DNA from: Rhizobium sp. Q54
Lineage (GTDB): Bacteria; Pseudomonadota; Alphaproteobacteria; UBA828
NCBI GenBank assembly: GCA_945902735.1
Contig: CAMDNF010000001.1
Span: forward strand, 10,594-74,593
DNA length: 64,000 bases
Direction: 5' to 3'
Below, piece after piece: positions 1,428 to 38,245 of this stretch. The first letter of the stretch is position 1. Each line of letters starts with the position of its first letter. Made by a program: the position numbers and the translations under genes. Below the pieces are notes generated by a model. That model saw only the letters and a list, made by a program, of their open reading frames with translations, ran no database searches and had not been told where the DNA came from.

Positions 1428-2570
<1,143 letters not shown>

Positions 2571-5202: not shown

Positions 5203-5798
5203 TCCTGCCGCGCCATTTGATCGTGTTCACACGGCCTGCGCGCTTGGGTGCGGTTAAGACGCGGCTCGCCGCCGGCATCGGCACAAGCGAGGCCTGGCGC
5301 TTTCATCGTCGTACGGTCAGGACATTGCTTATGAAGGTCGCTCGCGATACGCGCTGGCGCACCTGGCTCGCTCTGCCTCCTGAGGCGATCGAGCAAAATG
5401 ATCGCTCCTGGCCGATCGATCTACCACGGCTCGATCAGGGCGAGGGCGATATCGGCCAGCGCATGGCGCGCAGCTTCGATCAATTACCGCCGGGGCCGGC
5501 GGTGCTGATCGGTGGCGATATTCCCTCGATCGAGCCCTTTCATATCGCTGAGGCATTTGAGGCGTTGGGTGCGGCGGAAATTGTGTTTGGTCCGGCGGCG
5601 GATGGCGGATTTTGGCTGGTCGGTTTTGCACGCCGTGGACGGCGGCTCGATCCGTTCAGTGGTGTGCGATGGTCAACCGAACATGCGCTCGCCGATGCGC
5701 GCGCCCACTTGCCGCGCGATACGCGCGTGGCGTTGGTCGAGACTTTGGCGGATGTCGATGACGCGGCGGCTTATGAGCGATGGCGCGCCGGTGCTTAG
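5199..5798 (+). CDS. DUF2064 (TIGR04282, CofC-like nucleotidyltransferase-fold) protein
   Basis: 199 aa; HLIVFTRPARLGAVKTRL...LIGGDIPSIEP...FGPAADGGFWLVGF matches the DUF2064 family, which is usually encoded next to the TIGR04283 GT2. Confidence 0.65.
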   Translation: MILPRHLIVFTRPARLGAVKTRLAAGIGTSEAWRFHRRTVRTLLMKVARDTRWRTWLALPPEAIEQNDRSWPIDLPRLDQGEGDIGQRMARSFDQLPPGPAVLIGGDIPSIEPFHIAEAFEALGAAEIVFGPAADGGFWLVGFARRGRRLDPFSGVRWSTEHALADARAHLPRDTRVALVETLADVDDAAAYERWRAGA

Positions 5799-24183: not shown

Positions 24184-24257
24184 TGGGGCGTGGCCAAGCG
24201 GTAAGGCAACGGTTTTTGGTACCGTGATCCCAGGTTCGAATCCTGGCGCCCCAACCA
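24184..24257 (+). tRNA. tRNA-Gln (anticodon UUG)
   Basis: Hand-folded cloverleaf: acceptor TGGGGCG/CGCCCCA with the U1:A72 pair typical of bacterial tRNA-Gln; anticodon stem ACGGT/ACCGT with loop TTTTGGT (anticodon TTG); T-arm CCAGGTTCGAATCCTGG; 3' CCA encoded. Coordinates +/-2 nt. Confidence 0.85.
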
Positions 24258-29976: not shown

Positions 29977-30038
29977 GGCGGGTGACCTTGAAGCGATGAG
30001 CGCGAAGCCCCATCATCAATCGGTCTCAATGATGCACC

Positions 30039-30722
30039 ATGAAGGATGAGCCCATGAGCGGTGGCACCCCGCGCCTTGACGGTCCTGAACTGCCGCCGCA
30101 GAGCGGGGGAAAAGCGCGGCAATTGATCGTGTTTCTGCACGGCCTCGGCGCCGATGGCAATGATTTGATCGGCCTGGCCGATCATTGGGCGGCGCTGTTG
30201 CCAAACGCGCATTTCGCTTCGCCGCACGCGCCCGAGCCATGCGACATGGCGCCGATGGGCCGGCAATGGTTCTCGCTGCAACGGCGCGACGAGGCGGCCT
30301 TGTTGAACGGCGTCAGTCGCTTGGCACCACTGTTGAATGAATATCTCGATGCGCGGCTCGCGGCCTTGGGTCTCAGCGCGCAATCCCTCGCGCTGGTCGG
30401 CTTCAGCCAGGGCACCATGACCTCGCTCTATGTCGCCTATCGTCGGCCGATGGGCGTCGGCGCGGTGCTCGGTTATTCGGGCCGGATCATCGGGGCCGAG
30501 CGCCTGGCCGAGGAAGCCCGCGCCAAGCCGCCGACCATGCTGATTCACGGCGATGCCGATGAGATCGTACCCGTGGGCGCGATCTTCGAGGCGGCGCAGG
30601 CCTTGGGCGCCGCCGACATTCCGGCGCAATGGCATATCAGCGAAGACCTCGGCCACGGCATCGCGCCCGATGGGCTCGAAATCGGCGGCAAATTCCTGCT
30701 CGATACGGTCGGGCGGGTTTGA
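30039..30722 (+). CDS. alpha/beta hydrolase, phospholipase/carboxylesterase family
   Basis: 227 aa; LIVFLHGLGADGND, nucleophile elbow GFSQGT, HGDADEIVP. Confidence 0.75.
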   Translation: MKDEPMSGGTPRLDGPELPPQSGGKARQLIVFLHGLGADGNDLIGLADHWAALLPNAHFASPHAPEPCDMAPMGRQWFSLQRRDEAALLNGVSRLAPLLNEYLDARLAALGLSAQSLALVGFSQGTMTSLYVAYRRPMGVGAVLGYSGRIIGAERLAEEARAKPPTMLIHGDADEIVPVGAIFEAAQALGAADIPAQWHISEDLGHGIAPDGLEIGGKFLLDTVGRV

Positions 30723-30748
30723 AATTTTCACGAGAGTTGATTGTGGTC

Positions 30749-31228
30749 ATGAAACGATTTGCCGTTTCGGTGTGCTTTGTTCTGGCTGTTTCGATCGCCG
30801 CGCTCGGCCACGCGCATGACTATAGCTTTGGTGACATCGAAATCACCCATCCCTGGGCGCGCTTCACGCCGCCCGGTGCGCCGAATGGCGCGGCCTATTT
30901 AGTGATCGAGAACAAGAGCGCCGCGCCTGACCAGCTGATCGGCGCCGCGACACCGCGCGCGGCCAAGGTTGAGTTCCATGGCCACGAGATGGAGGGCGAG
31001 ATGATGGCCATGCGTCAGCGCGAGGCGATCGACCTCGCCGCGAAGGACATCGTCGCGTTCGAACCCGGCGGCCTTCATTTGATGCTGCTTAAGCTTACCG
31101 CGCCACTTAAAGACGGCGAGCGCTTTCCGCTCACGCTTCGGTTCGAAAAGGCCGGCGACATATCGATCGAGGTGGTGGTTGAGCGTGGGACCGAAACAAA
31201 GTCGGGCACGCACCATCAGATGAAATAA
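30749..31228 (+). CDS. copper chaperone PCu(A)C (DUF461)
   Basis: Start at MKRFAVSVCFVLAVS (signal peptide); H(x)nM-rich motif FHGHEMEGEMMAM typical of PCuAC. Confidence 0.75.
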   Translation: MKRFAVSVCFVLAVSIAALGHAHDYSFGDIEITHPWARFTPPGAPNGAAYLVIENKSAAPDQLIGAATPRAAKVEFHGHEMEGEMMAMRQREAIDLAAKDIVAFEPGGLHLMLLKLTAPLKDGERFPLTLRFEKAGDISIEVVVERGTETKSGTHHQMK

Positions 31229-31996
31229 TCAGCGGGGCTCCGGCGCGTCGTCGCGGAGCGTGTTGCGCGCGCCAATGGCCACCGCCGGGCCCGGCATCGC
31301 CACCAGCACGCGGCGGCGCACGCGCTTCGCCGCGGGGCGCGCGCCATAAACCTGCTTGGTCGCCTCGACCAGTACGACACCGCCAAACGGCTTGCCGAAA
31401 ATCGGCCCAAGGCGCTGCCAGAGCGCGCTCGTGCGTAAGATGAGCCGCGCTTGAATGGGCGGCAGATAGAGCGCGCCTTCATGACGCACGGGGTCGAAAT
31501 GATTTTCGCGCAACAGCCGCGTCAATTGCGAGCCGCTGAATGGCCGGCCATGGCCGAAGGGCGTGCGCTCGACACGCGCCCAAAGGCTCCGCCGGTTCGG
31601 CACCAGCGCGAGGAGGCGCCCGCCGGGCCTTAGCACGCGCCAGACCTCGCGCATCAAAGGTTCGGTCTGCTCGGCGAATTCGATCGCGTGCACGAGCAAA
31701 ATCCGATCGATCGATTCATCGGGTAGCGGCAGCTCGCCTTCCTCGGTGATCGCGACCAGGCGCTTGCCATCGCTCGGCCAGGCCAAAACGCCTTGGCCTG
31801 CCGGCATGAAGGCGATGGTGCGCACGGCCTCCTCGCGAAAGAGGCCGAGAAAGGGCGTGGCATAGCCGAGCCCAAGCACGGATTCGCCGGTCACCTTCGG
31901 CCAGAGCGCGCGCAGCTCGCGCCGGATCACGCGCCGCGCGACCTGGCCGAGGTGCGATTCATAGAAGGCGTTCAGATCGACGACATCCGGGCGCAT
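31229..31996 (-). CDS. class I SAM-dependent methyltransferase
   Basis: 255 aa; VLGLGYATPFL (motif I-like), LRPGGRLLALVPN. Confidence 0.7.
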   Translation of the reverse strand: MRPDVVDLNAFYESHLGQVARRVIRRELRALWPKVTGESVLGLGYATPFLGLFREEAVRTIAFMPAGQGVLAWPSDGKRLVAITEEGELPLPDESIDRILLVHAIEFAEQTEPLMREVWRVLRPGGRLLALVPNRRSLWARVERTPFGHGRPFSGSQLTRLLRENHFDPVRHEGALYLPPIQARLILRTSALWQRLGPIFGKPFGGVVLVEATKQVYGARPAAKRVRRRVLVAMPGPAVAIGARNTLRDDAPEPR

Positions 31997-32088
31997 GGGG
32001 AATCATAGCACGACCTAGAGTTTTGGTTAGTCGGCAGCGGAAGATGGCAAGCTCTGCCGCAACATTATGATCGATTTGTTTTGGTCTG

Positions 32089-32215
32089 CCCCACCCGGCA
32101 ACGCAAGCGTTGCCGCCCTCCCCCTCAAGGGGGGAGGGGAAGGAAATTCGGATTGTCGTGGTGCGTACCTTTTACCCCCTCCCCCTCGACGGGCGAGAGT
32201 TGGGGTGGGGGTGAC
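32089..32215. repeat. REP-like nested-palindrome intergenic element (family R2), copy 1
   Basis: cACCCGGcAACGCAAGCGTTgCCGCCCTCCCCCTCAAGGGGGGAGGGGa plus a second G/C-rich hairpin; homologous to 57708-57765. Confidence 0.6.
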
Positions 32216-32235
32216 TGCGAAAGCGACTTGGTGCC

Positions 32236-32267
32236 CCGCCTCAATACATATGCGTGCGGCGGTTCAT
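32236..32267. repeat. left direct repeat (duplicated phaB 3' end) flanking the insertion
   Basis: ccgcctcaatacatatgcgtgcGGCGGttcat matches 34334-34365 (ccgcctcaatacatatgcgtgcCGCCGttcat) except for a 6-bp inverted core. Reverse complement encodes MNRRTHMY*, a remnant of the phaB C-terminus MNGGTHMY*. Confidence 0.7.
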
Positions 32268-32998
32268 CCAGCCTGCCTTCCGGTACCATCGACCGCCATC
32301 TCCAGCACATCCAGAAACGACGAATCGTATGTCTCATCGACGTGGCGCTGGTTCCACAGCCCTGATTCGCGCACGAGACTGCGGTCGGAGCCTTGCCCGA
32401 GCCACCCGAGGGATGGCGGATCGAGGGCTGGGCGGTCGAAATTGCTCAGCAGCGCAATGCCATTGCGCTCGATAAACCCGCGTAGACTTTGGGGCCCGGG
32501 ATCGTCGTTGATGTCGAGCCAGAGGAACGGCATGGCCCCGATATATCGCGTCACGGCCTGCTCGACCGGCGCTTCGGCTTTGTTCAACGCTTCTCGATCG
32601 ATGCCTAACGCCGCCGCTGCCTTGGTGGCGTCGCTCTTCACGCCCCAGGAAGGGCAAAGCGGGGCCTTCCCTGCCGCGATCAGCGCCTGACCAATCAGCA
32701 GACGGAAGATCGAGCCGCGGTGATTCCCTCCGCCTGACGAAGGTCCGCGATGCTGTCCGAGCCGCTGGCCGAGCGTCGAACGCGAACCCGCACGAAGCGC
32801 GTGCGTGCCCACACGCACGACGCGCGGCCCGGCGCCGCTTTCTTGGCGAACTTCGGACGGCTCGAAGAACAGATAGACTCCGCGCTGGGGCCAATCACGA
32901 TACGTGCCAAAGTTCGCGAGCGTGCGAGTTCCACCGGCGCGTTGCTGCAGGCGGTCGAGCAGGCCGTAGAAACGCAGGAGATCTTCGAGGCGGCTCAT
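32264..32998 (-). CDS. GIY-YIG-like nuclease family protein (244 aa)
   Basis: RGVYLFFEPSE...VVRVGTHAL...STLGQRLGQHRG...GNHRGSIFRLLIGQAL resembles the degenerate GIY-YIG module of the widespread 'GIY-YIG nuclease family protein' group. Start overlaps the upstream gene's stop (ATGA). Confidence 0.6.
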   Translation of the reverse strand: MSRLEDLLRFYGLLDRLQQRAGGTRTLANFGTYRDWPQRGVYLFFEPSEVRQESGAGPRVVRVGTHALRAGSRSTLGQRLGQHRGPSSGGGNHRGSIFRLLIGQALIAAGKAPLCPSWGVKSDATKAAAALGIDREALNKAEAPVEQAVTRYIGAMPFLWLDINDDPGPQSLRGFIERNGIALLSNFDRPALDPPSLGWLGQGSDRSLVRESGLWNQRHVDETYDSSFLDVLEMAVDGTGRQAG

Positions 32999-34332
32999 TC
33001 CTCTTCGGATAACCAGGCCAACTGCTCGCCGCGAGTGAGATGTTCCATCGGGGCTTCCACAACCAACCCATGTCGTCGCAGGGGCTCGATTAGAAACTCG
33101 CGGTAGCGTGCTCCGGCTAAGAACACAACGCGTCGATAGTTGGCAGTGGCCGGCAGAAGCCTTTCGAGAACCTTGGCCGCCCAGGCCTTCCGCACGGCGA
33201 CTCCGAGCGTATTCAGTGTGTAATCATAGGGAGCGATCACTTCGCCGGGATCGACGAGGCCGTATTGCGACGAGAGAAGCAACCACCGTGCGCCGCTCGC
33301 TTCAACGAGATTCCGCGCCTTGCGAAACAGGGGAGACGTATAGAGTTCTCGCGCAGGCGCAGCGTGTGGCAGTTTACTTTTGACGCAAGATATCAAGACA
33401 AGCGCATCGGAGAGATCGAGAGTGCTGCTTGCTCGGGGCGCCGCAGGCTCGGGCATAGGTGCTGGAACTGAGGCCGTGAGTCGTTCAGATGAAGGCGGGG
33501 CGCTAAGCCCAAACCTAAAGTAGACGTTCGCACCGTTCGGCGGACCTTTGCGTTCTATGACCTTGACGCCAGCGACGTCGTTGAATTTCCTGCTGCCGAT
33601 TGCGCTGCAAACTGCCGGCATGGCGCTGCTCAAACCCATCGCCTTATGTATGTCACCAACGCGAATGGTGAGCTCCTTGTGACCAGCCGCCCTCGCGGGA
33701 GCGACAAGGCGATCGATGACGAACTGACGAATCCGATCGGCCTGACCGATATCGCGTCGATCGGTCCGCTTGCTTGATGTCTCAATCGGCTGGGTCGGAC
33801 TTTGTGAGTCTATTTTCTCGTGCCGTGGCCTGAAATTTTCGGTTGCTTCACTTTGGTTGACGTCTGCCACGGGCTGCTGAATCTCGCCGCCCGCTTCTTC
33901 TTCGTCGAGATGGAGCCGGCGCAGTGCCTTTTTCATCGTTTCGACGTCATTGGCCTCGGGCGCCGAAATCGCGGCCAGAAGACGCCCTGAGGTATCAAGC
34001 GCGCGGTAAGCGTCGTCGGCCGAGAAATGGCCCTGGTGTGCCCACCGGTTCCGAATGTCTATTAGTTCGTTGACGAGACTGCGTTCGGCTCTGCCGAAGC
34101 GGGGACGGAAAACTTCGCCCCAACTTCGATCCATGATGACCAACAGAGCGGCGACGTCGTAGGTCGCATCGGCCTTTTCACTACGAAGCCGGGTGTCGGC
34201 CAGTATGTCTTGGATTTGTTCGGCCCAGCCCTTGCCGAATTGAGCCTTGAACTCGCGTTCGATGAACGGTCGCAAACCATCCCGCAGCCACCCTAGGGCT
34301 TTGCCGACTCGCTCATGATTGGAGGTGCTCAT
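32995..34332 (-). CDS. Swt1-like HEPN domain protein with two additional uncharacterised domains (445 aa)
   Basis: N-terminal ~135 aa: WGEVFRPRFGRAERSLVNELIDIRNRWAHQGHFSADDAYRALDTSGRLL carries the Rx4H motif and layout of Swt1-type HEPN. Central region: LTIRVGDIHKAMGL...VCSAIGSRKF. C-terminal region: LVLISCVKSKLPHAAPARELYTSPLF...WLLLSSQYGLVDPGEVIAPYDYTLN (DUF6884-like). Confidence 0.7.
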   Translation of the reverse strand: MSTSNHERVGKALGWLRDGLRPFIEREFKAQFGKGWAEQIQDILADTRLRSEKADATYDVAALLVIMDRSWGEVFRPRFGRAERSLVNELIDIRNRWAHQGHFSADDAYRALDTSGRLLAAISAPEANDVETMKKALRRLHLDEEEAGGEIQQPVADVNQSEATENFRPRHEKIDSQSPTQPIETSSKRTDRRDIGQADRIRQFVIDRLVAPARAAGHKELTIRVGDIHKAMGLSSAMPAVCSAIGSRKFNDVAGVKVIERKGPPNGANVYFRFGLSAPPSSERLTASVPAPMPEPAAPRASSTLDLSDALVLISCVKSKLPHAAPARELYTSPLFRKARNLVEASGARWLLLSSQYGLVDPGEVIAPYDYTLNTLGVAVRKAWAAKVLERLLPATANYRRVVFLAGARYREFLIEPLRRHGLVVEAPMEHLTRGEQLAWLSEEE

Positions 34333-34333
34333 A

Positions 34334-34365
34334 CCGCCTCAATACATATGCGTGCCGCCGTTCAT
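34334..34365. repeat. right direct repeat (authentic phaB 3' end)
   Basis: See left repeat; overlaps the last 8 codons and stop of phaB. Confidence 0.7.
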
Positions 34366-35064
34366 GGTGACGGTCGAGCCCGTGGTCCAGGCCGCTTTGT
34401 CATCGACCAGGAACAGCACCGCATGGGCGACTTCTTCGGGCAGGCCGAAGCGGCGCACCGGCGATTTATCCAGGATCTTCTCGCGAATGCGCGCCGGCGC
34501 GTCGCGCATCATATAGGTGTCGAGATAGCCGGGCGCGATGTTGTTGACCGTGATGCCGTATTTCGCGGCTTCGAGCGCGAGGCCCTTGGTGAAGCCGTGC
34601 ATGCCGGCTTTGGCCGCGACGTAATTGACCTGGTTGAGCTGGCCGGCCTGGCCGTTCATCGAGCCGATATTGACGATGCGGCCCCAGCGCTTCTCGATCA
34701 TCGCGGGGTAAACCTGCTTGCACATGTAGAAGACCGAATCGAGATCGATGCGGATCACTCTGTGCCATTGTTCGACGGTCATGTTCTCGAACTTGGCTTC
34801 CGAGACCGCGCCGGCGTTGTTGACCAGAATGTCGATCGCGCCCAAATCTTTCACCACTTGGGCGTGGCCGCGCGCGCAGGAATCGAAATCGCCGACGTCC
34901 CATTTATAGGCCTTGATGCCGGTCTCGGCGCTGAATGCCTGGGCGAACTTGTCGTCGCTCGCATAATTGACCGCGACTTTATGGCCGGCGGCCTTGAGCG
35001 CGACCGCGATCGCCGCGCCAATGCCGCGACTGCCGCCCGTAACAAGTGCAATGCGTGAGGTCAT
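34339..35064 (-). CDS. phaB: acetoacetyl-CoA reductase (SDR), paralog 1
   Basis: 241 aa; IALVTGGSRGIGAAIA, NNAG, YVAAKAGMHG (YxxxK), C-terminal TMNGGTHMY. Confidence 0.9.
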   Translation of the reverse strand: MTSRIALVTGGSRGIGAAIAVALKAAGHKVAVNYASDDKFAQAFSAETGIKAYKWDVGDFDSCARGHAQVVKDLGAIDILVNNAGAVSEAKFENMTVEQWHRVIRIDLDSVFYMCKQVYPAMIEKRWGRIVNIGSMNGQAGQLNQVNYVAAKAGMHGFTKGLALEAAKYGITVNNIAPGYLDTYMMRDAPARIREKILDKSPVRRFGLPEEVAHAVLFLVDDKAAWTTGSTVTMNGGTHMY

Positions 35065-35091
35065 CGTTCTCTTACTCTGTTTGTTCGTCGA

Positions 35092-35814
35092 TCAATACAT
35101 GTGCTGGCCGCCATTCACCGAAACCGTCGAGCCGGTGATGAAACCGGCGTCGTCGGCCACCAGGAACAGCACGGTGCGCGCGATGTCGTCCGCGCGCCCC
35201 AAGCGCCCGACCGGAATGCGCGCGATGATTTTTTCCAAAATATCGGCCGGCACGGCGCGTACCATGTCGGTGTCGACATAGCCGGGCGCGACCGCGTTGG
35301 CCGTGATGTTGAAGCGCGCGCCCTCTTGCGCGAGCGCCTTGGTGAAGCCGTGAATGCCCGATTTCGCGGCGGCGTAATTGACCTGGCCATATTGGCCCGC
35401 CTGGCCGTTGATCGAGCCGATATTGACGATGCGGCCGAATTTTTTCTCGCGCATGCCGTTCACGACAAGGCTGCATAGATTGAAGCACGAGCTCAGATTA
35501 GTATCGAGCACCGCGCGCCATTGCTCGGGCGTCATGCGGAAGATCGTCGAATCGCGCGTGATGCCGGCATTGTTGACCAGAATTTCAACCGGCCCGAGCT
35601 CGGCGGTGATTTTGGCGATGCCGGCCTTGCAGGCGTCGTAATCGGCGACGTCCCATTTAAAGGTTTTGATGCCGGTCTCGGCGTTGAAGCGCTTCGCGGC
35701 CTCGTCATTGCCGGCATAGGTCGCGGCAACCTTGTAGCCGGCCTCGTGCAAACGACGTGAAATCGCTTCGCCAATGCCTCGTGTGCCGCCGCTGACCAAT
35801 GCGACCCGTGCCAT
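35092..35814 (-). CDS. phaB: acetoacetyl-CoA reductase (SDR), paralog 2
   Basis: 240 aa; VALVSGGTRGIGEAIS, YAAAKSGIHG, C-terminal VNGGQHMY. Tandem with paralog 1. Confidence 0.9.
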   Translation of the reverse strand: MARVALVSGGTRGIGEAISRRLHEAGYKVAATYAGNDEAAKRFNAETGIKTFKWDVADYDACKAGIAKITAELGPVEILVNNAGITRDSTIFRMTPEQWRAVLDTNLSSCFNLCSLVVNGMREKKFGRIVNIGSINGQAGQYGQVNYAAAKSGIHGFTKALAQEGARFNITANAVAPGYVDTDMVRAVPADILEKIIARIPVGRLGRADDIARTVLFLVADDAGFITGSTVSVNGGQHMY

Positions 35815-35944
35815 GATGGCCTCTTTGGTAGACCCGCCTCGCGGCGAGGTGAATTTGTGCTTTAGATTTGGCCTTGGGTCTCGCGGCGTCGCAAGCGGTC
35901 ATTTGTACGAGGTCTCGATGAGTCATGCTCATCAAGACTTGGTG

Positions 35945-37117
35945 TTATTTCGACGTTTCGAGAATCCAGCGCGCGAGCGGTCCATAAAGCGCGGTGTTGG
36001 CGCGTGGGCTCGCGATCATGCCGATATGACCAAGGGGCGGGCGCATGGCGCGGGCGCCTGGGATCGAATGCGCCAGCACTTCGGCCGTGGGCGGCGGCAC
36101 GATGCGGTCCGCCTCCGGAACCACCACGAGCGCGGGCATGGCAAGGCGCTCAGGGTGCACCGCCTCGCCGCCGACTCTATAGGTGCCGCGTCCCGGCTGG
36201 TTTTCGTCATACCAGCCGGTCAAACATTGGCGCGCCACGGGGCCGGCGAGCGGCACGCCGTCATTAAGCCAGTCCTCGAGCGCGACGAAGCCTTGCGCCG
36301 CCGCGCTCGTGGGGTCGAGCGTGGCGAAGCGCACGAATTTGCGCGCCGCCAAGAGGGGGTCGAGCCCGCTGAACAGGCTTTGAATGAGATCGGTCGGTAA
36401 CAGACCGAAAAGGTTGATCGCGTTGTCGAGCATGGCGCGATGCGCCTGAAGGAGGGTGCGCTGGGTACCGCCATCGGCCGCGAAATCCCAAGGCGTCGCC
36501 AAAAGGCCGAGCGCGTTCACCTTGTCGGGCGCGCGGAGTGCCAGCGGCAGGGTCAACAGCCCGCCCATGCAATAGCCGATCAAGGCCATGGGACCGCCAT
36601 AAGAGGCGACCGCCGCGTCGAGCGCCTTGGCGAGCCGGCCGAGGATGTAGTCGTCCAGCGAAAAGCGCTGCTCGACCGCGCCGGGTGCCGCCCAATCGAG
36701 CAGGAAGCATCTGATGCCGTCGCGGTTGAGGGCGCGCATCAGGCTGCGCTCGGGCGCGAGATCGAGAATATAGGCGCGGTTGATCAGGGACGGCACGAAC
36801 AGCGCGGCTGCCTTGGTCGGCCCGGCTGGCCGGTAATCGAGCAAACGCGAGGTGCCCTCGGCCCACAGCACGGGCGGGTCGATCAGGCTTCGGCGATAGG
36901 GATGGGCGCGGTAGGCCGCGATGCCGTCGAGAAAGAGCCCAAAGCGCCGTCTGGTTTCGCGCTCGAGTGCCGTGAGCAGGGCGTCGGGCGGTGCCTTGGC
37001 CAGGGCGTCGGCGAGCGCGGTCGCGTCAGCCGCCAGCCCGTTTTTCCAATTGATCGAGTTGCTCTTCGCAAGCGGCAAGGCGCCGAGTGAGCTCATCCAT
37101 GTGGCGCTCGCCAGCAT
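35945..37117 (-). CDS. phaC: class III-type PHA synthase PhaC-like alpha/beta hydrolase
   Basis: Lipase-box G-x-C-x-G-G (LIGYCMGGLLTL); collinear with Allochromatium-type PhaC (LLDYRP.., FLLDW, SLDDYI). Start uncertain: the track ORF extends to 37192 and overlaps the upstream small ORF. Confidence 0.65.
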   Translation of the reverse strand: MLASATWMSSLGALPLAKSNSINWKNGLAADATALADALAKAPPDALLTALERETRRRFGLFLDGIAAYRAHPYRRSLIDPPVLWAEGTSRLLDYRPAGPTKAAALFVPSLINRAYILDLAPERSLMRALNRDGIRCFLLDWAAPGAVEQRFSLDDYILGRLAKALDAAVASYGGPMALIGYCMGGLLTLPLALRAPDKVNALGLLATPWDFAADGGTQRTLLQAHRAMLDNAINLFGLLPTDLIQSLFSGLDPLLAARKFVRFATLDPTSAAAQGFVALEDWLNDGVPLAGPVARQCLTGWYDENQPGRGTYRVGGEAVHPERLAMPALVVVPEADRIVPPPTAEVLAHSIPGARAMRPPLGHIGMIASPRANTALYGPLARWILETSK

Positions 37118-37469
37118 GAGGTGCAACGGAAGGGGCCTCGGTCCTTGCCGGGGGGCCAGGGTCGGCGCGGCGTGGCTGGTCATGCGGCGCACCGGGTCCG
37201 GGGCCCGGTTGGGGGCCGGGGTCGGGTTTGGGCTCGGCGGCGGGTCCGGGTTTGGGCCATAAAGTGGTGACCTGGCTTGCCTTCAAGAATGCCTGCGCCG
37301 CGCCGATCTGGCTTTCGATCAGCTGGCCGAGCAAGCGATTGGTCTCGGGGTCGCTGGCCAACGCGGCCACATGGCTTTGCCACAGATCGAGGAACCGGCG
37401 CGCCAACGCCTCCAGGCTGGGTGGCTCGCCCGTTTTGGGGGTATCCGAATCGGTTTTGGCGGTGGCCAT
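37026..37469 (-). CDS. hypothetical Pro-rich protein with C-terminal coiled coil (possible PHA-synthase-associated partner)
   Basis: 147-aa ORF; PKPGPAAEPKPDPGPQPGPGPGAP low-complexity region; C-terminal ELTRRLAACEEQLDQLEKR. Could be spurious in this GC-rich DNA. Confidence 0.3.
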   Translation of the reverse strand: MATAKTDSDTPKTGEPPSLEALARRFLDLWQSHVAALASDPETNRLLGQLIESQIGAAQAFLKASQVTTLWPKPGPAAEPKPDPGPQPGPGPGAPHDQPRRADPGPPARTEAPSVAPHAGERHMDELTRRLAACEEQLDQLEKRAGG

Positions 37470-37624
37470 GGCGCGAGGATAACGGCAAGCCCATGGCGTG
37501 ATCCAGCCTCAAGGGAGCGGCTTTGCCGCGCCGCACTGTCAAATTTGCGCGTTGCAGCATTTCCTGCCAGACTAAGCCCTAAGTTAGGAGGGGGCGCCCT
37601 CCGCCCCGGGAAGGATTGCGCCAG

Positions 37625-38245
37625 ATGAGCGATACAAGCACCAGCGCCACGCCGCCCGGCGAAACCATCGTGATCAAGAAATACGCGAATCGCCGTCTCT
37701 ATAACACGGCGAGTTCAAGCTATGTGACGCTTGAGCATCTCGCCCAGATGGTGCGCGATGGTCAGGAGTTCGTGGTTCAAGATGCGAAGACCGGCGATAA
37801 CATTACGCATCAGGTGTTGACTCAGATCATCGTCGAAGAAGAGGCCAAGGGCCATACCATGTTGCCGATCGGCTTTCTGCGTCAGTTGATCCGGCTCTAT
37901 GGCGATTCATTGCAGGCCTTCGTGCCGCGCTATCTGGAAACCTCGATGGATAATTTCTCGAAGAATCAGGGCCAGATTCGCGAGCAGATCGAACGCACCT
38001 TCGGCGGCATTTTTCCGTTCGGCGAAATCGAACGCCTGAGCCGGCAGAACCTCGGCGTGTTTCAGCGCGCCATGAGCATGTTCACGCCCTTCGCCACCAC
38101 CCAGGCCGGCAAGGCGGCGAGCAATGGCGCGGACAGCGCCCCGGCCGAGGAACGCGAGCGCGAAGATATTTCGACGCTCAAAGATCGCATGAACCAGATG
38201 CAGGCCGAGCTCGATCGCTTGGTCCGCCGACGCGAGAGCGAATAA
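37625..38245 (+). CDS. phaR: polyhydroxyalkanoate synthesis repressor PhaR
   Basis: IVIKKYANRRLYNTASSSYVTLEHLAQMVRDGQEFVVQDAKTGDNITHQVLTQII is the PhaR N-terminal DNA-binding domain signature. Confidence 0.9.
   Translation: MSDTSTSATPPGETIVIKKYANRRLYNTASSSYVTLEHLAQMVRDGQEFVVQDAKTGDNITHQVLTQIIVEEEAKGHTMLPIGFLRQLIRLYGDSLQAFVPRYLETSMDNFSKNQGQIREQIERTFGGIFPFGEIERLSRQNLGVFQRAMSMFTPFATTQAGKAASNGADSAPAEEREREDISTLKDRMNQMQAELDRLVRRRESE

What the first reader, a model, noticed from the sequence alone, without database searches (positions are those of the whole stretch)
32236..34365. Integrase-less ~2.1-kb insertion inside the last 32 nt of phaB, flanked by imperfect direct repeats of the phaB 3' end
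The sequence ccgcctcaatacatatgcgtgcSGCSGttcat occurs twice, at 32236-32267 and 34334-34365, about 2.1 kb apart. The right copy is the genuine end of acetoacetyl-CoA reductase (..MNGGTHMY*). The left copy encodes an orphan remnant MNRRTHMY*, immediately followed by REP-like palindromes that look like the ancestral phaB terminator region. This is the architecture of a site-specific integration that duplicates and reconstitutes the 3' end of a target gene. Integrases usually do this at tRNA/tmRNA genes; here the target is a protein-coding gene and no recombinase is present, so the element is either a degraded or mobilisable island or inserted by an unknown mechanism. The two repeats differ only by a 6-bp core (GGCGG vs CCGCC, an exact local inversion), reminiscent of a crossover/overlap region. 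The cargo is a two-gene operon with defence-like domains.
Basis: seen in the sequence. Interest (0 to 1): 0.8.

Follow-up and report, generated by a model that had tools for sequence, protein, structure and literature searches.

The report
Recombinase-less defence cassette inserted behind phaB
A 2.1-kb foreign two-gene candidate anti-phage cassette sits right behind the stop codon of a storage-polymer gene in a freshwater alphaproteobacterium, flanked by a 32-bp duplication of that gene's end and carrying no recombinase; the insertion is real, but how it got there is unresolved and it looks like a one-off event.

Summary
The 32-mer occurs exactly twice (32236-32267 and 34334-34365, 2 mismatches, 0 copies expected by chance). 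Seven loci from related lineages have a clean empty site, with phaB...TGAGGCGG followed directly by GGCA/GGCG. Eight independent assemblies of the same population carry the identical insertion.

The cargo is a translationally coupled pair matching the PADLOC candidate system PDC-M57. It has a HEPN_Swt1-DUF6884 protein (445 aa) and a GIY-YIG-fold nuclease (244 aa). Its GC3 is lower than the host's. It has no promoter or spacer of its own. The first ATG lies 1 nt after the right repeat, and the last stop codon lies inside the left repeat.

I found no recombinase, terminal inverted repeats, attC or dif-like site. I found no second copy of the site and no matching viral att. About 50 other non-redundant M57 loci show no such flanking repeat, so the repeat belongs to this event and not to the cassette family.

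The "6-bp inversion" is just two G-to-C changes in the orphan copy. They improve a weak dyad symmetry. The insertion point lies 5 nt from a very stable REP-like hairpin.

My best reading is a one-off recombinase-independent capture by template switching or illegitimate joining (confidence 0.4). The main rival is att-type integration by a recombinase acting in trans (0.28). Interest is moderate.

The parts
34334..34365 (-). phaB-proximal (right) copy of the 32-bp direct repeat. It holds the last 8 codons of phaB-1 (MNGGTHMY), the stop codon (34339-34341) and 5 further nt (GGCGG). Its GAGG (34337-34340) is the only Shine-Dalgarno-like sequence in front of the cassette's first ATG.
   Evidence: The sequence is identical to the single copy at the empty sites of L012 and L031.
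32236..32267 (-). Distal (left) orphan copy of the repeat (ATGAACCGCCGC...TGAGGCGG, would read MNRRTHMY*). It has two G-to-C changes relative to phaB and contains the stop codon of the GIY-YIG gene (32264-32266).
   Evidence: As single-stranded DNA it folds into CCGCC.GC / 11-nt loop / TG.GGCGG at -7.9 kcal/mol, against -2 to -4 for the phaB versions, but z is only -1.
32268..34333 (-). Unique inserted DNA (2066 nt; 2098 nt with one repeat copy). It is absent from all seven related loci.
   Evidence: The L012 alignment stops exactly at window 34334 and resumes in the downstream flank. GC3 is 0.63 and 0.71 for the two genes, against 0.74-0.82 in flanking host genes.
32995..34332 (-). Cassette gene 1 (445 aa): N-terminal Swt1-like HEPN domain (aa 11-123, contains RNRWAH), a linker, and C-terminal DUF6884 (aa 312-443, YaaA-like DNA-binding fold). 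It matches PADLOC PDC-M57A. Its ATG is 1 nt after the right repeat.
   Evidence: Pfam PF18731 1e-34 and PF21818 2.5e-45. PDC-M57A 1e-34. The DUF6884 description comes from PMC11701544.
32264..32998 (-). Cassette gene 2 (244 aa): GIY-YIG-fold nuclease (PF26468 GIY_YIG_3 in precomputed annotation), matching PADLOC PDC-M57B. Its start overlaps the stop of gene 1 by 4 nt (ATGA).
34339..35064 (-). phaB-1, the target gene (241-aa SDR, acetoacetyl-CoA reductase type), left intact by the insertion.
35092..35814 (-). phaB-2, a tandem paralogue upstream. Its 3' end (GTGAATGGCGGCCAGCACATGTATTGA) is not the source of the repeat.
32071..32227 (-). REP-like, highly structured element whose stem base starts 5 nt after the left repeat. 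The same element follows phaB directly in the empty relative L012. It is a probable transcript end or stabiliser and a possible replication obstacle.
   Evidence: RNA fold of 32060-32270 gives -94.8 kcal/mol, z -4.3, 0 of 200 shuffles as stable. The CCCTCCCCCTC motif occurs twice.
31229..31996 (-). Downstream flanking core gene (255-aa class I methyltransferase), used as the anchor to find empty sites.

Best explanation
A foreign, promoterless two-gene unit of the PDC-M57 type was captured once, in the ancestor of this population, by a recombinase-independent event. The unit encodes a HEPN_Swt1-DUF6884 protein and a GIY-YIG nuclease.

The event most likely involved two microhomology-guided template switches, or equivalent illegitimate joins, at a replication fork or break stalled by the large REP-like hairpin just 3' of phaB. 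In this model synthesis left the chromosome at ...TGAGGCGG and copied the foreign DNA from just before the first ATG through the last stop codon (...GGATGA). It then re-entered the chromosome 32 nt behind the exit point, at ATGAAC. That duplicates the last 32 nt of the phaB region as a by-product.

The proximal copy stays under selection as the phaB end and supplies the ribosome-binding site. The distal copy is an orphan. It has since picked up two G-to-C changes, possibly in a single quasi-palindrome template-switch mutation.

The cassette is read through from the phaB operon and is kept because it is useful. Its presumed role is anti-phage: DUF6884 would sense DNA, and the GIY-YIG and HEPN domains would act as nucleases. 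Spread within the population would then need only homologous recombination in the flanking core genes.

Shown: the insertion, its exact borders, the empty sites, the cargo identity, the absence of mobility genes, the uniqueness of the repeat and the adjacent hairpin. Inferred: the template-switch mechanism, co-transcription and the defence function.
For: (1) Empty sites in seven related loci and an identical occupied structure in eight assemblies define the event to the nucleotide.
(2) Both ends of the 32-bp duplication coincide with signals the cassette itself needs. The stop codon of gene 2 is the TGA of ATGAAC. Its position fits the C-terminal length of homologues to within 1-2 residues, so TGA was probably donor sequence too. 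That would be microhomology at this junction. The GAGG 4 nt before the first ATG lies in the other repeat end.
(3) The exit point is 5 nt from the base of a roughly 165-nt structure (z -4.3). This intergenic region is hypervariable among relatives: 42 nt in L031, 513 nt in L012 and 239 nt here.
(4) There is no recombinase in the element or among 10 candidate ORFs of the window, and no inverted repeat between the cassette's two ends.
(5) The repeat is unique to this event. Among 32 non-redundant M57 loci with both flanks, only this one has a flush repeat (score 24; control maximum 11). About 20 further loci, including 15 viral contigs, have none.
(6) Foreign origin: GC3 is 0.63 and 0.71 against 0.74-0.82. 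The best full-length relative of gene 1 is 52% identical.
(7) There is a 6-nt gap to the phaB stop and no terminator-like site on the minus strand.
Against: A 32-bp duplication is not a routine product of illegitimate recombination in bacteria. I could not retrieve a documented bacterial precedent, so the mechanism is drawn from general knowledge of FoSTeS/MMBIR-type events.

Both borders lie flush with ORF ends, which needs some luck under a random-join model. Selection for expression helps explain only the 5' side.

The two mismatches are not random-looking. Both raise the dyad symmetry of the distal copy (my rough estimate is about 1% for two random substitutions). That fits a recombinase site at least as well as it fits drift.

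The donor sequence is unknown, so microhomology at the junctions is inferred and not seen.
Confidence: 0.4

Rival explanations
1. Site-specific (att-type) integration of a minimal circular cassette by a recombinase supplied in trans. The 32-mer would be the identity block of attL and attR. The CGCCGC version would be the element's own arm (attP-type). Crossover would occur in the AT-rich centre (CGCATATGTAT), and the element-borne part would rebuild the phaB end. This would make it a CIME- or pseudo-SCC-like or integron-cassette-like unit.
For: The repeat spans exactly the end of a conserved gene and restores it, as integrases that target gene 3' ends do. The mismatches lie only in the distal copy, on the side expected for a P-type arm. 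The reconstructed attP junction has 7 of 8 bp dyad symmetry (ACCGCCGC ... GAGGCGGT) around an AT-rich 13-nt centre, against 4 of 8 in the empty site, and it folds better (-7.9 vs -4.2 kcal/mol). The cassette is as compact as an integron cassette, with 29 nt between stop and start in a circular form. A different DUF6884 gene lies downstream of phaB in a sister lineage, hinting at repeated use of this region.
Against: There is no recombinase in the element or among 10 candidate ORFs in the window. The window has no further copy of the site. Viral contigs give 0 hits for the 27-mer and the 20-mer. About 50 non-redundant M57 loci have no flanking repeat. None of seven related loci carries an autonomous element at this site. 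The dyad arms (8 bp) and spacer (13 nt) do not match known core-site geometries. The fold z-scores are not significant. In the sister lineage the DUF6884 gene lies 690 nt from phaB and is not flush with it.
Confidence: 0.28
2. Remnant of a larger integrated island or prophage that entered at the phaB 3' end with its own integrase. It later lost everything except the two defence genes.
For: Direct repeats at a gene 3' end are the classic footprint of such islands. The same gene pair occurs in prophages and viral contigs, for example next to terminase and ParB-methylase genes in L136-L140, and in 15 IMG/VR contigs.
Against: The ORFs are flush with both repeats (1 nt on one side, stop codon inside the repeat on the other). 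Two independent clean deletions ending exactly at ORF borders would therefore be needed. There are no pseudogene fragments. The 2066 nt are fully accounted for by two overlapping intact genes.
Confidence: 0.07
3. Homing-like spread driven by the cassette's own GIY-YIG nuclease. This would resemble the free-standing endonuclease ORFs in fungal mitochondria, which carry a copy of the target gene's 3' end and displace the resident end downstream.
For: The element encodes a GIY-YIG-fold protein. The architecture is the same: intact gene end, then ORFs, then an orphan gene end.
Against: There is no co-conversion tract. The last 51-63 nt of phaB are identical to the empty relatives, and divergence is not raised near the junction. 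The nuclease family is highly conserved (65-80% identity) and almost always paired with DUF6884. It sits in many unrelated contexts and never behind phaB elsewhere. The orphan copy is the one that differs from the relatives, not the in-frame copy.
Confidence: 0.05
4. Xer/dif-type (IMEX), integron attC-type or transposase-mediated insertion.
For: ACGCATATGTATT loosely resembles the XerC arm plus spacer of E. coli dif. I compared it with the consensus recalled from memory.
Against: There is no XerD-arm equivalent, and the target is not the chromosome's dif. There are no RYYYAAC/GTTRRRY cores. The cassette ends have no terminal inverted repeats, and 32 bp is far outside usual target-site duplications.
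Confidence: 0.03

Closest known systems
PADLOC candidate defence system PDC-M57 (DUF6884 protein + GIY_YIG_3 protein)
   Same: Both genes hit the PDC-M57A and PDC-M57B models (1e-34 and 2.1e-87). The order, orientation and ATGA overlap match those seen in dozens of other loci.
   Different: Gene 1 carries an extra N-terminal Swt1-like HEPN domain, which is the rarer architecture (best full-length relative 52% identical). The small third gene that follows M57B in many relatives is missing here. The family's anti-phage activity is a prediction. I found no experimental paper.
Recombinase-less att-flanked elements: CIMEs of streptococci and pseudo-SCC elements at the 3' end of rlmH/orfX in staphylococci (from my own knowledge)
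   Same: Cargo only, no recombinase, flanked by direct repeats that include the 3' end of a protein-coding gene, which stays intact.
   Different: Those elements share their att sites with autonomous relatives whose integrases are known and which occupy the same site. Here I found no such relative, integrase or second site. The cargo is also flush with the repeats.
Defence 'hotspots' between core genes without mobility genes, as in the core defence hotspots of Pseudomonas aeruginosa and the E. coli hotspots (from my own knowledge)
   Same: A defence cassette sits between conserved core genes, relatives have empty sites, and there are no mobility genes. Exchange through flanking homology is plausible. 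A different DUF6884 gene occupies the same intergenic region in a sister lineage.
   Different: Hotspot exchange by homologous recombination leaves no duplication. The 32-bp repeat here records the original non-homologous entry.
Mobile endonuclease ORFs with duplicated gene 3' ends in fungal mitochondria, such as Allomyces atp6 and the Glomeromycota mobile ORFs (from my own knowledge)
   Same: A GIY-YIG ORF sits behind a gene whose 3' end is present twice, and the downstream copy is an orphan.
   Different: There is no co-conversion signal. The nuclease belongs to a conserved two-gene system, and the target is not recurrent.
Template-switch insertions with flanking duplication (FoSTeS/MMBIR) and quasi-palindrome templated mutations (from my own knowledge)
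   Same: The insert is bounded by a short duplication whose ends can be read as junction microhomologies. It lies next to a strong hairpin. Paired base changes perfect an inverted repeat.
   Different: These are described mainly in eukaryotes and in E. coli mutation assays. Capture of a 2-kb foreign operon in this way has no precedent that I could retrieve.

Membership tests
PDC-M57 candidate defence system | A DUF6884-containing protein matching the PDC-M57A model | tested here: met
   PDLC04712 E 1e-34 over aa 310-444. Pfam PF21818 2.5e-45.
PDC-M57 candidate defence system | An adjacent, co-oriented protein matching the PDC-M57B model (GIY_YIG_3) | tested here: met
PDC-M57 candidate defence system | Protection against phage | not testable with these tools
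   No paper mentions PDC-M57. The function is inferred from the domains.
Integrase-mediated genomic island | Direct repeats (attL/attR) that reconstitute the target | tested here: met
   A 32-bp repeat is present and phaB is intact.
Integrase-mediated genomic island | A tyrosine or serine recombinase gene within the element | tested here: not met
   The element holds only two genes, and neither is a recombinase.
Cis-mobilisable element (CIME / pseudo-SCC type) | The same att site is used by an autonomous element with a cognate recombinase | tested here: not met
   All seven related loci are empty. Viral contigs give 0 matches. There is no recombinase among 10 candidate ORFs of the window. The rest of the genome was not searchable.
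Cis-mobilisable element (CIME / pseudo-SCC type) | Evidence of excision (circular junction or precise loss in the same background) | not testable with these tools
   This needs raw reads. All eight same-population contigs are occupied.
IMEX (Xer-dependent element) | A 28-bp dif-like site with XerC arm, 6-bp spacer and XerD arm, with integration at dif | tested here: not met
   By eye against the E. coli dif consensus recalled from memory, there is a partial XerC-arm and spacer resemblance only and no XerD arm. The target is a gene end.
Integron gene cassette | An attC site with RYYYAAC ... GTTRRRY cores and an imperfect palindrome | tested here: not met
   The sequence after gene 2 lacks both cores.
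DDE transposon / IS / MITE | Terminal inverted repeats and a short (2-15 bp) target duplication | tested here: not met
   The cassette ends (TATGAGCACC... / ...GGCAGGCTGG) are not inverted repeats of each other. The duplication is 32 bp.
Free-standing homing endonuclease gene | Co-conversion of flanking target sequence and recurrence at the same target in other genomes | tested here: not met
   The last 51-63 nt of phaB are identical to the empty relatives. No other M57 locus lies behind phaB.

The most novel reading that the evidence does not exclude
The 2.1-kb unit is a minimal mobile defence cassette. It would move as a circle of two ORFs plus a 32-bp recombination site, inserted and excised by a chromosomal or helper recombinase at the 3' end of phaB. 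That would be an integron-like cassette economy operating outside integrons and targeting a protein-coding gene end.
Probability: 0.12. Interest if true: 0.75.

Novelty: new variant of a known kind. Interest (0 to 1): 0.42.

Why it matters
Many defence systems sit in chromosomal spots with no mobility genes nearby, and how they first get there is rarely visible. Here the entry event is preserved to the nucleotide. There is an exact empty site in close relatives, a 32-bp duplication and ORF-flush borders, and expression is borrowed from the phaB operon.

If the repeat is a by-product of a template switch at a hairpin, this is a clean natural example of recombinase-independent capture of a foreign operon. 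If it is an att site, it points to a very small cassette type mobilised in trans.

Either way it is a single case. The cargo belongs to an already catalogued but untested candidate family. The wider significance is therefore moderate until more examples or excision evidence are found.

Tried and rejected
(1) Is the flanking repeat a general property of M57 cassettes? I fetched 80 metagenome loci, 15 viral loci and 15 loci via exact-protein look-ups, and scanned for direct repeats bridging the gene pair. Only two other loci scored above control, and both are something else. L109 has a 26-nt hairpin in front of two ORFs that both start MTPS. L066 has a diverged repeat that looks like the N-terminus of the small gene that often follows M57B, present on both sides of the pair.

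(2) A sister copy of this cassette. The best full-length relative of gene 1 is 52% identical. A 173-aa fragment, P0249, is 96% identical over 69% of the 173-aa C-terminal query.

(3) A phage or element with a matching att. A 27-mer and a 20-mer gave 0 hits in viral contigs.

(4) A recombinase in the window. Ten ORFs of integrase-like size are all housekeeping enzymes. The remaining ORFs were not scanned.

(5) Homing. There is no co-conversion tract.

(6) Gene conversion from the phaB-2 paralogue. Its 3' end is different.

(7) A structured RNA or tRNA target. There are no Rfam hits in 30000-37000, and the only tRNA is at 24184.

(8) Hairpin significance of the left copy. The fold is better than for the phaB copies, but z is only -1.

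(9) Plasmids and phages in annotated collections. There are 10 plasmid hits below 60% identity, mostly haloarchaeal, and no phage hit.

(11) Literature on illegitimate insertion with duplication. I found nothing directly applicable.
Full report
**Observation**

The 32-nt sequence occurs twice in the window, at 32236-32267 and 34334-34365, 2098 nt apart. None of 100 shuffles produced a match. The copies differ at two positions, both G/C.

All genes here are on the minus strand, so I describe them in gene direction:
- phaB-2 (35092-35814).
- phaB-1 (34339-35064, ending MNGGTHMY*).
- A 445-aa gene (32995-34332).
- A 244-aa gene (32264-32998).
- The orphan repeat copy, then REP-like sequence.
- A methyltransferase gene (31229-31996).

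The ATG of the 445-aa gene lies 1 nt after the phaB-proximal repeat. The TGA of the 244-aa gene is the TGA of ATGAAC inside the distal repeat. The two genes overlap each other by ATGA. The 2066 nt between the repeats therefore contain two ORFs and nothing else.

**It is a true insertion**

Exact-protein look-ups with phaB-1 and the methyltransferase found eight independent assemblies from several samples and from one NCBI MAG. They are at least 99.94% identical to the window, and all show the same occupied structure and the same two repeat versions.

I anchored a genome scan on the methyltransferase and looked up other members of the phaB 90% cluster. This gave seven related loci without the cassette:
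- L012, a Lake Baikal MAG about 95-96% identical in DNA. It reads ...ACCATGAACGGCGGCACGCATATGTATTGAGGCGG|GGCATTAAGTCGCTTTCGC..., exactly the single-copy site with the same downstream sequence as in the window.
- L031, L146, L147 and L148. L031 shows the single-copy 32-mer. The other three show phaB followed after 42 nt by the methyltransferase gene.
- L013 and L014, which are more distant.

L146 and L148 come from samples that also hold the occupied population. Empty sites in several outgroups make insertion the parsimonious direction. The cassette has lower third-position GC (0.63 and 0.71) than the flanking host genes (0.74-0.82), which fits foreign origin.

**The cargo**

Gene 1 has a Swt1-like HEPN domain (1e-34) and a C-terminal DUF6884 domain (2.5e-45). 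Pfam's curators describe DUF6884 as a YaaA-like DNA-binding fold with CxxxK and LSAxxG motifs (PMC11701544). Both motifs can be read in this protein.

The gene 2 family is very large, with more than 6800 clusters. In 80 metagenome loci it is usually preceded directly by a DUF6884 gene. It occurs in prophage-like regions next to terminase, in other variable regions, in 15 viral contigs and on a few haloarchaeal plasmids. The HEPN fusion is the rarer form, and the closest full-length relative is 52% identical. No experimental work on PDC-M57 was found, so 'defence' remains a prediction.

**What the repeat is not**

- The element has no recombinase gene. Ten window ORFs of integrase-like size are all housekeeping enzymes. 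Other ORFs were not scanned.
- The cassette ends are not inverted repeats of each other.
- There are no attC cores.
- There is no convincing dif-like site. I saw only a partial resemblance to the XerC arm and spacer, judged against a consensus recalled from memory.
- There is no tRNA or known RNA at the site.
- The 27-mer and 20-mer versions of the site are absent from viral contigs.
- The phaB-2 paralogue ends differently.

The repeat is also not a property of the cassette family. Among 32 non-redundant M57 loci with both flanks, only the window has a flush flanking repeat (score 24, control maximum 11). About 20 further loci have none. Two other scoring loci, L109 and L066, turned out to be a repeated promoter-region hairpin and a repeated N-terminus of a neighbouring small gene.

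**The two mismatches**

A crossover or overlap region must be identical in both partners. This block therefore cannot be one.

The changes do create CCGCC, which pairs with the GGCGG at the other end of the repeat. The orphan copy, and the hypothetical circular junction, fold at -7.9 kcal/mol, against -2 and -4.2 for the phaB versions. The z-scores are only -1 to -1.4. By my rough count, two random substitutions would both improve this pairing about 1% of the time.

Three readings fit:
- A single quasi-palindrome template-switch mutation in a now neutral sequence.
- The element-type arm of an att site.
- Chance.

The neutral divergence of the shared 52 nt downstream between the window and L012 is 5 differences. 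Two changes in 32 neutral nt is therefore not excessive in number.

**Context of the insertion point**

The sequence from 5 nt after the repeat onward folds into a very stable, roughly 165-nt REP-like structure (-94.8 kcal/mol, z -4.3). L012 has the same start of this element right after phaB. The phaB-methyltransferase spacer is 42 nt in L031, 513 nt in L012 and 239 nt here, so this is a hypervariable, repeat-invaded spacer.

No terminator-like site lies on the minus strand between phaB and the cassette. The only Shine-Dalgarno-like sequence for gene 1 (GAGG) overlaps the phaB stop codon inside the repeat. The cassette is thus most likely expressed by read-through from phaB.

**Testing the homing idea**

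The cargo includes a GIY-YIG nuclease, and the architecture recalls mitochondrial mobile ORFs that duplicate a gene's 3' end. I therefore looked for a co-conversion tract. There is none. The last 51-63 nt of phaB are identical to those of the empty relatives, and mismatches are not enriched towards the junction. Together with the conserved pairing with DUF6884 and the varied contexts of the family, this makes homing unlikely.

**Mechanism**

The data fix the product but not the process.

I favour a single recombinase-independent capture (confidence 0.4). In this model a nascent strand, or a broken end, stalls at the hairpin and leaves the chromosome at ...GAGGCGG. It copies or joins the foreign two-gene segment and re-enters at ATGAAC, 32 nt upstream, which duplicates those 32 nt. 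This reading explains four things:
- The event is unique.
- The position lies next to a strong structure.
- No mobility function is present.
- Both repeat ends double as cassette signals. The stop codon of gene 2 sits where homologues end to within 1-2 residues, so TGA was probably present in the donor as well, giving microhomology with ATGA.

It does not easily explain why both borders are ORF-flush, or why the mismatches improve symmetry.

The main rival (0.28) is att-type integration of a minimal circle by a recombinase in trans. It explains the flush borders, the gene-end target and the mismatch pattern. It lacks any recombinase, any second site and any related element. A decayed larger island (0.07), homing (0.05) and Xer, integron or transposase routes (0.03) are less likely.

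**A loose end that bears on this**

Two phaB variants from another sample (P0245 and P0247, 92% identical to the window's phaB) lie on short contigs. On P0245's contig phaB is followed, after a 690-nt gap, by a 167-aa DUF6884 gene. On P0247's contig a gene cut off by the contig end starts at the same 690-nt offset.

That 167-aa protein is not among the 120 best relatives of the window's DUF6884 domain, so it is probably a different cassette. This suggests the spacer behind phaB is a recurrent landing place for such genes. That fits a permissive hotspot, or less directly a targeted site.

**Verdict**

It is a recombinase-less insertion of a candidate defence operon with a target duplication. 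A site-specific origin is not demonstrated, and the 'crossover core' reading is wrong.

The cargo belongs to a catalogued but untested candidate family, in its HEPN-fused form. The entry architecture is an unusual variant of known integrase-less defence islets. Interest is moderate. It would rise sharply if excision products or further examples with the same architecture were found.

Noticed in passing
No DNA held: contigs of sample ERZ1305449 carrying phaB variants P0245 and P0247: In a sister lineage (phaB 92% identical), P0245's contig shows a 167-aa stand-alone DUF6884 gene 690 nt downstream of phaB, in the same spacer that holds the cassette here. P0247's contig has a gene cut by the contig end at the same 690-nt offset. 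The 167-aa protein is not among the 120 closest relatives of the window's DUF6884 domain, so it is probably an independent acquisition.
   Followed up: partly
window 32071-32227, and L012 6493-7000: REP-like G/C-tract palindromes (CCCTCCCCCTC...GGGGGAGGG) form a very stable structure (z -4.3) behind phaB. The phaB-methyltransferase spacer is 42 nt in L031, 239 nt here and 513 nt in L012, so small repeats have repeatedly invaded or left it.
   Followed up: partly
L136 4970-5251; also L053, L054, L064, L131 and L066, just after the M57B stop: In many loci a small third gene starts at or overlapping the M57B stop, with an N-terminus of the type xxFxNDDxxYLxW (93 aa in L136, no Pfam hit). It is absent from the window's cassette. 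In L066 a similar N-terminal sequence lies on both sides of the gene pair.
   Followed up: partly
L109 3807-5717: Here the DUF6884 and GIY-YIG proteins are fused into one 636-aa ORF preceded by a ParA-like gene. A 26-nt hairpin (CTGAGTGCCATGATCTGGCACTCATG) occurs at 2388-2413 and 5726-5751, each time in front of an ORF starting MTPS.
   Followed up: partly
P0249 (Logan assemblies, 1979-nt contig): A 173-aa fragment is 96% identical to the window's gene 1 over 69% of the 173-aa C-terminal query and ends in a frameshifted tail. A closely related but not identical copy of the cassette therefore exists in other samples. Its genomic context could not be retrieved.
   Followed up: no
window 34339-37192 and 37616-38245: The insertion sits in a PHA gene cluster: two tandem acetoacetyl-CoA reductase paralogues, an alpha/beta-hydrolase-type gene of 415 aa that I read as PHA-synthase-like, and a divergently placed PhaR-type regulator (PHB_acc domains in the equivalent genes of L001).
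   Followed up: no
window 1428-2549 (minus strand): A 373-aa N6/N4 DNA methyltransferase with a C-terminal RAMA domain. I read it as CcrM-like and typical of Alphaproteobacteria. It has no adjacent restriction gene among the ORFs I checked.
   Followed up: no
window 33624-33736 and 34220-34222: Several metagenome contigs of the same population break inside gene 1 (L001, L003, L006, L008, L010). This may reflect low coverage or co-existing alleles of the cassette.
   Followed up: no
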